64,000 bases of DNA from NCBI RefSeq assembly GCF_055900595.2, contig NZ_CM148325.1; one strand, written 5' to 3'. Below are positions 22,701 to 24,400 of this stretch, one piece after another (the stretch's first letter is position 1; each line of letters starts with the position of its first letter). A program made the position numbers.

Positions 22701-24400
22701 CTGCTGATGGTCAGTACCGCATACGGCGTGGCAATGCGTTCTTCGCCAATCGCCAGACCGCCGTAAACCATGTGTTTCACTGTCGCTTTACCGTCCTGCA
22801 CGCTAACTGCGCTGGCATCGTTCGAAACCGCCGCTTTAAGGCGATAACCCAGTTTTGCCGCCAGTAATTTGCCGCGACGGCTATTCGGCAACAGCACCAG
22901 ACCGTCTGCGCCGTGCTGGCGAATAGTGTCAGCCATGACACCGGCGTAATCTTCGATCATCCGATCGTCCGGTTTGCCGCTTAATGTCCAGACATGATTA
23001 GCACCAAGCTGGATTGCCAGTGCGCCGTCGGCATCATTGAGGACAAAGGTGTTGATTTGATTAGCTAAAGCCTGCGCACCGTTCATCAGTTCCGGCAGAC
23101 GAGAAGGGGTATCGCTGAATACCCAGACTTGAGAAAACGTGTTCATAGCATCCCCTGTAATTAAATGACTTTGCGAAGATTTTCAGCAAATGCGGCGATC
23201 TGTTCTTCGCCGTCACCTTCAATCACGATGCGCTGACGCTCGCGCTGTTTCGGTGCGGCAACCTGTTGTTCAGACCAGGCTTCCACGGCGTTAAAGCCAA
23301 TATCCGCCGCCGACCATACCTGGACTGGCTTTTTCGCCGCGCCGAGAATGGCTTTCATCGAAGGAATTTGTGGGGAATTGATATCAGTGGAAACAGCAAC
23401 AACCGCAGGCAGCGGAATGCTTAAGGTTTCTGTTTCATCTTCCAGTTCGCGCTCAACGGTGAGGGTATCTGCCGTCAGGGAGATAATTTTGCTGACGCCG
23501 TTAACTGCCGGAATATTGAGGATTTCGCCCACCAGCAGACCAACCTGCTGGGCATAAAGGTCGGAAGAACCATCGCCACAAAGGATCAAATCAAAGCCTG
23601 CTTTCTGGGCGGCAGCAGCCAGTGCGGTCGCCGTTTGTTGCGGCAGTGCCTGCTCGAACTGGTCATCAATCACCACAATCAGTTCATCCGGGCCGCGCGA
23701 TAGCACATCTTTACGCCCTTTGGCGTTAGTCAGGGCTTTACCGCCCACACTTAGGGCCGTCACCTGCGCCTCTGCTGCCTGTTGCTTTAGCTGGCAAGCC
23801 GCTTCAATAGCGTTGAGATCGTATTGGCTTATTTTGGCATCGGCTTTACTGAAGTCTAACGAACCATCAGCATTATTGACCGCAATATCCTGTTCATCAG
23901 GCACGCACTTATAGCAAGTAATAATCTTCATTGCATCTCCAGAAATCATGAAGGAAACGTCGTTCATATCGGTGGTGTTAATTACAGATATCACGCCCTT
24001 TAATTTGGAAATAAAACTTTAATCACCAATATTGAAAATGTCACACGCAGATAAATCCAACTTTCAATATTGTTAAGTCCCTCACCAATATTGAAAACAT
24101 GGCGTAGCAAAAAGAAATTTTCAATATTGCTTTATGGATCACCAATATTGAAAGTCAGATGCTATTTTTTTACTCACAATCAAACTCATCACATTGATAA
24201 ACAATGAATATTTACACAAAGACGCCCTGTTTTTACCCGATAAAAAACTGTGACTAACATCACAGAACGCAGCCAATTGAATACCCATTATGAGTTAGCC
24301 ATTAACGCGTCCACGAGGTTAATAATAATTATATTAAATGTTAACAAAAATAAAACAAACGGGAACGCAAAATAAATATTCGTTTTCACAGTGGAATTAA

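What the first reader, a model, noticed from the sequence alone, without database searches (positions are those of the whole stretch)
24023..24153. Five phased CAATATTG palindromic cores in the fixA-caiT divergent promoter region
The 8-bp palindrome CAATATTG recurs five times at spacings of 38, 21, 36 and 21 bp, embedded in alternating longer motifs (TCACCAATATTGAAA and TTTCAATATTG). This regular array is far beyond chance in 130 bp and probably holds the CaiF operator half-sites; five copies suggest higher-order activator binding across the divergent promoters.
Basis: partly seen in the sequence, partly recalled or inferred. Interest (0 to 1): 0.35.

Follow-up and report, generated by a model that had tools for sequence, protein, structure and literature searches.

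The report
Known CaiF operator sites, cai-fix region
The five repeated CAATATTG motifs are real and are the already published binding sites of the carnitine activator CaiF between the E. coli caiT and fixA genes; the one addition is that the unpaired fifth copy, which sits in the fixA core promoter, is the most widely conserved of the five.

Summary
CAATATTG occurs at window 24027, 24065, 24086, 24122 and 24143, with spacings 38/21/36/21. Shuffles of the 472-bp intergenic region give 0.017 copies on average.

The window is Escherichia coli-type DNA, with fixA on the minus strand, caiT on the plus strand and caiF 7 kb away.

Copies 2+3 (24062-24096) and 4+5 (24119-24153) each match the published CaiF site TTTCAATATTG-N13-CAATATTGAAA exactly. 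These are sites F1 and F2 of Buchet et al. 1999, as quoted in PMC12083890 and PMC3680233.

Comparison of caiT-anchored loci from other GTDB species adds three points:
- The number of pairs varies: one in Yokenella, Atlantibacter and Trabulsiella, two in Escherichia, Salmonella and Citrobacter, and three in Proteus. One EPEC-derived E. coli has lost a 59-bp unit.
- The unpaired copy 1 (TCACCAATATTGAA) is invariant in 14 species that I assign from memory to about five families, and it is the only copy kept in Hafnia and Edwardsiella.
- Copy 1 lies inside the predicted fixA core promoter. This resembles how CaiF's relative GrlA acts on the LEE1 promoter spacer.

The role of copy 1 is inferred, not shown.

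The parts
24023..24037 (+). Copy 1: unpaired A-type CaiF half-site TCACCAATATTGAAA (core 24027-24034). It has no partner at the N13 distance.
   Evidence: The 14 nt TCACCAATATTGAA are invariant in 14 species. It lies about 95 nt upstream of the fixA ATG in most Enterobacteriaceae, Proteus and two of three Providencia loci.
24062..24096 (.). fixA-proximal CaiF site: TTTCAATATTG-N13-CAATATTGAAA (copies 2+3).
   Evidence: Exact match to the published CaiF consensus. The 21-bp core spacing is conserved in every locus that has a pair.
24119..24153 (.). caiT-proximal CaiF site: TTTCAATATTG-N13-CAATATTGAAA (copies 4+5). It is a 57-bp tandem duplicate of the first site.
   Evidence: direct repeat D1, 51 nt, 73% identity, period 57. 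It is absent in the one-pair genera and in one E. coli strain.
24071..24086 (.). CRP-like sequence TGTTAAGTCCCTCACC inside the N13 spacer of the first CaiF site, centred at 24078.5.
   Evidence: It matches TGTGA-N6-TCACA at 8 of 10 positions. This agrees with CRP site 2 at -69.5 of fix, as I recall it from the Buchet 1998 abstract, which was not retrievable here.
24128..24143 (.). Weaker CRP-like sequence TGCTTTATGGATCACC inside the spacer of the second CaiF site, centred at 24135.5.
   Evidence: Read from the sequence. It would be CRP site 3 at -126.5 of fix (recalled, not retrieved). The left half is not conserved across genera.
24016..24044 (-). Predicted sigma-70 promoter of fixABCX: -35 GTGACA (24044-24039), 17-nt spacer, -10 TAAAGT (24021-24016). 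Copy 1 lies entirely within the spacer.
   Evidence: Consensus scan only. The implied start near 24009 fits the recalled 289-bp distance from the cai start.
24011..24016 (-). Conserved hexamer T(A/T)TTAT: TTTTAT here, TATTAT in Hafnia and Edwardsiella. It always lies 10 nt downstream (in the fix direction) of the copy-1 core and is an alternative or ancestral -10 element.
   Evidence: Alignment A2 has no gaps between this block and the half-site in 14 species.
24249..24264 (.). Perfect CRP consensus TGTGACTAACATCACA upstream of caiT, placed as a class II site for the cai promoter.
   Evidence: 10 of 10 match. It lies 104-121 bp from the last A-type core in most genera checked (Yokenella lacks it), whatever the number of pairs.
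31671..32066 (-). caiF, which encodes the 131-aa activator that recognises these sites.
   Evidence: ORF. Pfam PF07180 CaiF_GrlA, 28.4 bits against a cut-off of 25. Synteny with K-12.
23161..23931 (-). fixA, first gene of fixABCX, transcribed leftwards from the control region.
24404..25918 (+). caiT, first gene of caiTABCDE, transcribed rightwards from the control region.

Best explanation
The array is the operator of the carnitine-pathway activator CaiF in the shared control region of the divergent caiTABCDE and fixABCX operons of Escherichia coli.

Each 11-bp half-site (CAATATTGAAA) is taken to bind one CaiF subunit. Two half-sites in inverted orientation, 13 bp apart (cores 21 bp centre to centre, on the same face of the helix), make one site. 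There are two such sites 57 bp apart, the published F1 and F2.

Each 13-bp spacer holds a CRP-like sequence centred on the same point as the CaiF site, so CaiF and cAMP-CRP probably occupy each site together. A separate perfect CRP site serves the cai promoter.

The fifth copy is an unpaired half-site. I infer that it is a working CaiF site inside the fixA core promoter, at -18 to -28 relative to the published start as I reconstruct it. If the conserved T(A/T)TTAT hexamer is the -10 element, it lies instead at -23 to -33 and overlaps the -35 position. Either way CaiF would touch or remodel the RNA polymerase-promoter complex directly, as its family member GrlA does in the LEE1 promoter spacer. 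The upstream paired sites would then act as accessory or enhancer sites, and their number changes by gain and loss of a 57-59-bp unit.

Shown here: the sequence match, the genomic context and the conservation. Taken from the literature: CaiF binding to F1 and F2. Inferred: the function and mechanism of the fifth copy, and joint occupancy by CRP and CaiF.
For: - The motif and its spacings are exact and far beyond chance.
- The context is fixA/caiT with caiF nearby.
- The published consensus TTTCAATATTG-N13-CAATATTGAAA for F1/F2 is quoted in PMC12083890 and PMC3680233.
- K-12, the strain used in those studies, has identical cores.
- The array is present in 5388 of 5426 complete E. coli genomes.
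- Across caiT-anchored loci from other species, cores are invariant while spacers diverge. The layout is A, 38-40 bp, B, 21 bp, A, anchored about 95 nt from the fixA ATG.
- The number of pairs is 1, 2 or 3, and one E. coli strain has lost a unit.
- For the fifth copy, 14 of 14 nt are invariant in 14 species, with a fixed 10-nt gap to a -10-like hexamer. It is the only copy kept in Hafnia, Edwardsiella, Serratia sp. H1w, Limnobaculum and Leminorella.
- The fifth copy lies inside the predicted fix promoter spacer.
- CaiF belongs to Pfam CaiF_GrlA, and GrlA binds the spacer between -10 and -35 of LEE1 (PMC10877973; PMC4856446).
Against: - The primary papers (Buchet 1998 and 1999) are not held in the library. 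The exact footprint limits, which site is called F1 or F2, and whether the fifth copy was examined could not be checked.
- The transcription starts and the CRP positions (-41.5, -69.5, -126.5, 289 bp apart) are recalled from an abstract. They fit the sequence exactly, but that is not independent evidence.
- The fix promoter is only a consensus-scan hit, and the scan found about as many hits as shuffles give (3 against 2.5).
- Its spacer is 17 bp, not the suboptimal 18-19 bp typical of MerR- or GrlA-type activation.
- No binding data exist for the fifth copy. Its conservation could reflect another factor or the promoter itself.
Confidence: 0.9

Rival explanations
1. The repeats are mainly cAMP-CRP sites (CRP sites 2 and 3 of the fix promoter). 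The CAATATTG cores are only conserved flanks of those sites, not targets of a specific regulator.
For: The spacers contain TGTTA-N6-TCACC (8 of 10 positions) and TGCTT-N6-TCACC, centred on the same points as the repeat pairs. TCA immediately 5' of every A-type core is invariant (130 of 130) and equals a CRP half-site. CRP is a known activator of both operons.
Against: The literature assigns the 11-bp inverted repeats to CaiF. The left CRP half (TGTGA) is not conserved in the spacers outside Escherichia, Salmonella and Citrobacter, whereas the 8-bp cores are invariant. Copy 1 carries TCAC but has no CRP-like partner half 6 bp away. CAATATTG is not part of the CRP consensus.
Confidence: 0.04
2. 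The fifth copy is a non-functional relic of a third CaiF site whose left half decayed when the fix promoter evolved. Only the two paired sites matter.
For: The retrievable literature speaks of two sites only. There is no recognisable B-type partner 21 bp to its left (2 of 8 core matches, read). A-type repeats recombine, as in the EPEC derivative, so partial units can arise mechanically.
Against: A relic should decay. Instead its 14 nt are invariant in 14 species that I assign from memory to about five families, and it keeps a fixed distance to a -10-like hexamer. It survives in lineages that have no paired site at all. The unit deletion in the EPEC-derived strain kept a copy at exactly this position. 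I also recall that a 50-bp segment overlapping the fix start was needed for cai expression (Buchet 1998 abstract, not retrieved).
Confidence: 0.2
3. The array is an AT-rich tandem duplication bound by nucleoid proteins (H-NS, Fis, IHF) or by ArcA or FNR. The palindrome reflects their preferences rather than CaiF.
For: The region is 31-33% G+C. H-NS represses carnitine metabolism. Database-listed FNR and ArcA sites exist in the cai promoter region. A 57-bp direct repeat is present.
Against: Nucleoid proteins do not demand a 14-nt invariant sequence with a rigid 21-bp spacing kept across families while the surrounding AT-rich DNA diverges freely. The motif matches neither the FNR (TTGAT-N4-ATCAA) nor the ArcA consensus (from general knowledge). 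The literature assigns it to CaiF.
Confidence: 0.03

Closest known systems
CaiF sites F1 and F2 of the E. coli K-12 cai-fix control region (Buchet et al. 1999, Mol Microbiol 34:562, as quoted in PMC12083890 and PMC3680233)
   Same: The sequence is identical: TTTCAATATTG-N13-CAATATTGAAA, present twice, in the same intergenic region with the same flanking genes. K-12 has the same five cores. This is the same element in another Escherichia strain.
   Different: Only spacer bases differ from K-12, three in 146 bp. The unpaired fifth half-site is not part of the two-site description that I could retrieve.
GrlA at the LEE1 P1 promoter of EHEC/EPEC (Islam et al. 2011, as summarised in PMC10877973 and PMC4856446)
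   Same: The regulator belongs to the same Pfam family, CaiF_GrlA. GrlA's target lies between the -35 and -10 elements, which is where copy 1 sits in the predicted fix promoter.
   Different: LEE1 has a suboptimal 18-bp spacer, while the predicted fix spacer is 17 bp. No upstream paired sites are described for GrlA. Binding of CaiF to copy 1 is untested.
Activator arrays with an embedded CRP site, such as MelR plus CRP at melAB, and activator sites that replace the -35 element, such as PhoB pho boxes (from general knowledge, not tested here)
   Same: These systems also use several activator half-sites upstream of a weak promoter, with CRP bound between activator subunits and a promoter-proximal site that overlaps or replaces the -35 region.
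   Different: The protein families and site geometries differ. This is a resemblance in logic only.

Membership tests
CaiF operator (F1/F2) of the cai-fix divergent control region | Two copies of the inverted repeat TTTCAATATTG-N13-CAATATTGAAA | tested here: met
   Exact matches at 24062-24096 and 24119-24153, each with a 13-bp spacer.
CaiF operator (F1/F2) of the cai-fix divergent control region | Location between divergently transcribed caiT and fixA | tested here: met
   fixA at 23161-23931 (-) and caiT at 24404-25918 (+). RefSeq annotation of near-identical E. coli DNA agrees.
CaiF operator (F1/F2) of the cai-fix divergent control region | Cognate regulator gene caiF present in the locus | tested here: met
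   A 131-aa ORF at 31671-32066 (-) matches PF07180 CaiF_GrlA above the gathering score and is syntenic with K-12 caiF.
CaiF operator (F1/F2) of the cai-fix divergent control region | Physical binding by CaiF (gel shift or DNase I footprint) and dependence of induction on the sites | not testable with these tools
   Reported for K-12 by Buchet 1999. The primary paper is not held.
CaiF operator (F1/F2) of the cai-fix divergent control region | Conservation of the sites in other bacteria that carry cai/fix | tested here: met
   Cores are invariant and the 21-bp pairing is kept in Escherichia, Salmonella, Citrobacter, Phytobacter, Yokenella, Atlantibacter, Trabulsiella, Pluralibacter, Proteus and Providencia. 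The array is absent from Shewanella, Campylobacter and Ferrimonas caiT loci.
GrlA/MerR-like activation from within the promoter spacer (considered for copy 1) | Activator site lies between the -35 and -10 hexamers | tested here: inconclusive
   Copy 1 lies inside the spacer of the only minus-strand sigma-70-like match. That match is a consensus hit at background frequency, and the transcription start rests on recalled numbers.
GrlA/MerR-like activation from within the promoter spacer (considered for copy 1) | Over-long (18-19 bp) spacer that the activator corrects | tested here: not met
   The predicted spacer is 17 nt.
GrlA/MerR-like activation from within the promoter spacer (considered for copy 1) | Regulator of the CaiF_GrlA family | tested here: met
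cAMP-CRP sites (for the spacers of the paired sites) | Match to TGTGA-N6-TCACA, conserved in relatives | tested here: inconclusive
   8 of 10 positions at 24071-24086, and a weaker match at 24128-24143. The right half TCA(C/A) is invariant, but the left half is conserved only in Escherichia, Salmonella and Citrobacter.

The most novel reading that the evidence does not exclude
The unpaired fifth half-site, together with a -10-like hexamer exactly 10 bp away, is the ancestral and most conserved CaiF target. It is the point where CaiF acts on RNA polymerase inside the fixA core promoter, much as its relative GrlA acts at LEE1. On this reading the published paired sites F1/F2 are lineage-specific accessory modules, and their number (0 to 3) changes by gain or loss of a 57-59-bp unit. 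This would also explain why a segment overlapping the fix start is needed for cai expression 290 bp away.
Probability: 0.4. Interest if true: 0.35.

Novelty: already known. Interest (0 to 1): 0.15.

Why it matters
As it stands, the finding re-discovers a textbook-level operator. Its value is as a positive control showing that the scan picks up real regulatory arrays.

The comparative additions could help people who build CaiF-based carnitine biosensors from the fix promoter (PMC12083890). These additions are the deeply conserved fifth half-site in the fix core promoter, the variable number of paired sites, and the asymmetric A-type motif TCA(C/A)CAATATTGAA. They point to which bases to keep or vary. 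They also suggest a testable mechanistic link between CaiF and the virulence regulator GrlA.

Tried and rejected
- The primary papers could not be retrieved (Buchet 1998 J Bacteriol 180:2599; Buchet 1999 Mol Microbiol 34:562). The footprint limits and transcription starts therefore rest on secondary quotations and on my recollection of the abstracts.
- Literature searches for promoter names and for the numbers 69.5, 126.5 and 289 bp found nothing useful. A plain 'CaiF' search was swamped by the lncRNA CAIF.
- PMC8085414 does not mention CaiF.
- The control 'maximum multiplicity of any 8-mer in shuffles' was uninformative, because homopolymer runs in AT-rich shuffles give overlapping counts. 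The motif-specific shuffle is the valid control.
- I considered an RNA-level role (hairpins from the inverted repeats) and rejected it. The array lies between the two divergent starts, so on the reconstructed start sites it is not transcribed.
- I looked for further CaiF-type sites in the window, including the caiF promoter. There are only chance-level matches with 2-3 mismatches, plus one 1-mismatch match inside the caiF coding sequence. There is no evidence of autoregulation.
- I looked for a decayed B-type partner 21 bp left of copy 1 and found none (2 of 8 core matches).

Full report
**Observation.** Reading the window and an exact search confirm CAATATTG at 24027, 24065, 24086, 24122 and 24143, with spacings of 38, 21, 36 and 21 bp. 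Two unrelated copies lie elsewhere (14105 and 38683). Whole-window dinucleotide shuffles expect 1.36 copies in 64 kb. In 200,000 shuffles of the AT-rich 472-bp intergenic region, the mean is 0.017 copies and the maximum is 2. The longer alternating motifs are also real. (A/C)TCACCAATATTGAAA occurs at 24022, 24081 and 24138. TTTCAATATTG occurs at 24062 and 24119. A 51-nt direct repeat (24046-24096 and 24103-24153, 73% identity, period 57) shows that the second pair is a tandem duplicate of the first.

**Context.** The 1.5 kb around the array matches 5402 of 5426 complete E. coli genomes at 95-99.4% identity, and the annotated features under the match are fixA and caiT. In the window, fixA is on the minus strand (ATG at 23931) and caiT on the plus strand (24404-25918). 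This is the reverse of the K-12 orientation. K-12 MG1655 has the same five cores and differs only at spacer bases. The regulator gene caiF is at 31671-32066 on the minus strand. Its product matches Pfam PF07180 CaiF_GrlA above the curated cut-off.

**What is already known.** PMC12083890 (section 3.2) cites Eichler 1996 and Buchet 1999. [quoted passage not shown] PMC3680233 gives the same description. Copies 2+3 (24062-24096) and copies 4+5 (24119-24153) match this pattern exactly, including the 13-bp spacers. The primary papers are not held. I could not check the footprint limits or whether the fifth copy was examined.

**Promoter geometry (partly recalled).** From memory of the Buchet 1998 abstract:
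- the cai and fix starts are 289 bp apart;
- CRP site 1 is at -41.5 of cai;
- CRP sites 2 and 3 are at -69.5 and -126.5 of fix;
- a 50-bp segment overlapping the fix start is needed for cai expression.

The sequence fits all four numbers at once:
- The perfect CRP consensus TGTGACTAACATCACA (24249-24264, centre 24256.5) puts the cai start at 24298.
- Subtracting 289 gives a fix start at 24009.
- The CRP-like TGTTA-N6-TCACC in the spacer of the first CaiF site is centred at 24078.5 (-69.5).
- TGCTT-N6-TCACC in the second spacer is centred at 24135.5 (-126.5).

The CRP-like sites therefore share their centres with the CaiF sites. The CaiF core centres lie about 10.5 bp from that shared centre, on the opposite helical face from the CRP contacts. 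Joint occupancy is therefore geometrically plausible, but this is an inference. A consensus scan finds a minus-strand sigma-70-like promoter, GTGACA(24044-24039)-17 nt-TAAAGT(24021-24016). This is compatible with a start near 24009, and copy 1 (24027-24037) lies entirely inside its spacer. That scan found no more hits than shuffles give, so it is weak evidence on its own.

**Comparative analysis.** A CaiT-anchored scan of one genome per GTDB species returned 80 loci. I located fixA and caiT in each and mapped the cores.
- The layout 'A-type, 38-40 bp, B-type, 21 bp, A-type' begins 93-98 nt upstream of the fixA ATG in most loci: Escherichia, Salmonella, most Citrobacter, Phytobacter, Intestinirhabdus, Yokenella, Atlantibacter, Trabulsiella, Pluralibacter, Proteus and two of three Providencia. 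The exceptions are 82 nt in Citrobacter sedlakii and 129 nt in Providencia heimbachae.
- The number of B-21-A pairs differs. There is one pair in Yokenella, Atlantibacter, Trabulsiella, Pluralibacter and two unnamed Enterobacteriaceae. There are two in Escherichia, Salmonella, Citrobacter and Phytobacter. There are three in Proteus, which has seven cores spaced 38, 21, 38, 21, 38, 21.
- Whatever the pair number, the last A-type core lies 104-121 bp from the cai class II CRP site. Yokenella, which lacks that CRP site, is the exception. Both ends of the array are thus anchored, and the middle expands by 57-59-bp units.
- The same process is visible within E. coli. An EPEC E2348/69-derived genome has lost exactly one unit by recombination between A-type repeats, leaving three cores.
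- Shewanella, Campylobacter and Ferrimonas caiT loci have no such array.

**The fifth copy.** In an alignment of 12 genera, the three cores and the TCAC before each A-type core are invariant or nearly so, while the spacers diverge. Pooling 44 unpaired and 86 paired sites gives these motifs:
- The A-type motif is TCA(C/A)CAATATTGAA, with TCA in 130 of 130 sites.
- The B-type motif is TTCAATATTG(T/C)(T/C).
- The 'inverted repeat' is therefore asymmetric.
- The left half of the CRP-like sequence is not conserved outside Escherichia, Salmonella and Citrobacter.

Hafnia, Edwardsiella, Serratia sp. H1w, Limnobaculum and Leminorella have no paired site. They keep one A-type site that aligns without gaps to copy 1. 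In 14 species, which I assign from memory to about five families, TCACCAATATTGAA is invariant. It is followed after exactly 10 nt, in the fix direction, by T(A/T)TTAT: TATTAT in Hafnia and Edwardsiella, TTTTAT in E. coli (24016-24011), and TTTAAT in Proteus. The unpaired copy is thus the most deeply conserved piece of the array, and it is coupled to a -10-like element.

**Proposed mechanism.**
- Taken from the literature: the paired sites are the CaiF operator, and CRP co-activates.
- Inferred: copy 1 is a promoter-proximal CaiF site in the fix core promoter.

Copy 1 lies at -18 to -28 if TAAAGT is the -10 element. It lies at -23 to -33, overlapping the -35 position, if the conserved T(A/T)TTAT is the -10 element. 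CaiF's family member GrlA is reported to bind the spacer between -10 and -35 of LEE1 P1 (PMC10877973; PMC4856446), so a related mode of action is plausible. The predicted fix spacer is 17 bp rather than the suboptimal 18 bp of LEE1, so one defining feature of that mechanism is not met.

**Rival explanations.**
- Pure CRP sites: disfavoured, because the cores rather than the CRP left halves are conserved, and copy 1 has no CRP partner.
- A decayed relic: disfavoured by invariance across families and by retention where no pair exists.
- Nucleoid-protein or ArcA/FNR sites: disfavoured by the rigid 14-nt motif and the 21-bp spacing.
- An RNA structure: rejected, because on the reconstructed starts the array lies between the two divergent starts and is not transcribed.

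**Verdict.** The feature is the already described CaiF operator of the E. coli cai-fix region, so novelty is 'already known' and interest is low. The modest new content has three parts: the cross-family conservation and promoter placement of the fifth half-site, the variable unit number, and the asymmetric A-type motif. These are hypotheses for experiment, not findings of function.

Noticed in passing
L083 (NZ_LT903847.1, E. coli O127:H6 EPEC1, derived from E2348/69), intergenic positions 96-160 after the fixA ATG: This genome has three cores (spacings 36 and 21) instead of five. Exactly one 59-bp unit has been lost by recombination between the A-type repeats of copy 1 and copy 3. About 28 of 5388 E. 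coli genomes cover less than 80% of the array.
   Followed up: partly
L082 (NZ_CP095526.1, E. coli GN05505) 883-2077: An IS5 element is inserted in the fixA leader, about 50 nt upstream of the fixA ATG, between the array and fixA. The five cores are intact. The insertion would separate fixABCX from its promoter.
   Followed up: partly
L045, L047, L050, L053, L049, L043, L021 (Edwardsiella, Hafnia, Serratia sp. H1w, Limnobaculum, Leminorella), about 20-45 nt downstream (fix direction) of the single A-type site: In these taxa the fixA-caiT intergenic region is 650-770 bp, and the conserved half-site lies 254-340 nt from the fixA ATG. A conserved block, GAATCATGGTATTTCTATTG, follows the -10-like hexamer, which suggests a long conserved fix leader or a small unannotated feature.
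   Followed up: no
window 23976-23986 (fixA leader), with inverted-repeat partner 24392-24401: GTTAATTACA resembles an ArcA box (from general knowledge). It lies about +25 to +34 of the reconstructed fix transcript. The block GTGATA(T/A)C next to it is conserved across genera. PMC3680233 mentions database-listed ArcA sites at +28 and +50.
   Followed up: no
L021 and L043/L051 (Leminorella, Limnobaculum), intergenic positions 16-36: A B-type core (ttttCAATATTGtgaa), preceded by CAATATAA, sits only about 28 nt upstream of the fixA ATG. It is far from the conserved A-type site (230 bp away) and close to the ribosome-binding region.
   Followed up: no
L048 (Budvicia aquatica), intergenic positions 298-340: Two A-type sites occur in direct orientation 27 bp apart (atcacCAATATTGaaaac...atcacCAATATTGaaac). 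This arrangement was not seen in any other genus.
   Followed up: no
L025 (Yokenella regensburgei), intergenic region of 324 bp: The cai-proximal part, including the class II CRP site, is missing. The single paired CaiF site then lies only about 63 bp upstream of the inferred cai start. This is a different promoter architecture for cai.
   Followed up: partly
window 31955-31968 (inside caiF coding sequence): GTTCAATATCGAAA, a one-mismatch near-palindromic match to the CaiF half-site, lies in the 5' part of the caiF ORF (codons for FDIE). It is probably chance.
   Followed up: no
window 24194-24207: TTGATAAACAATGA, an FNR-like half-match (TTGAT-N4-ATCAA), lies between the array and the cai CRP site. 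In Hafnia and Edwardsiella the cai class II site itself reads TTGATTAAGATCAC, which is closer to the FNR consensus than to the CRP consensus.
   Followed up: no
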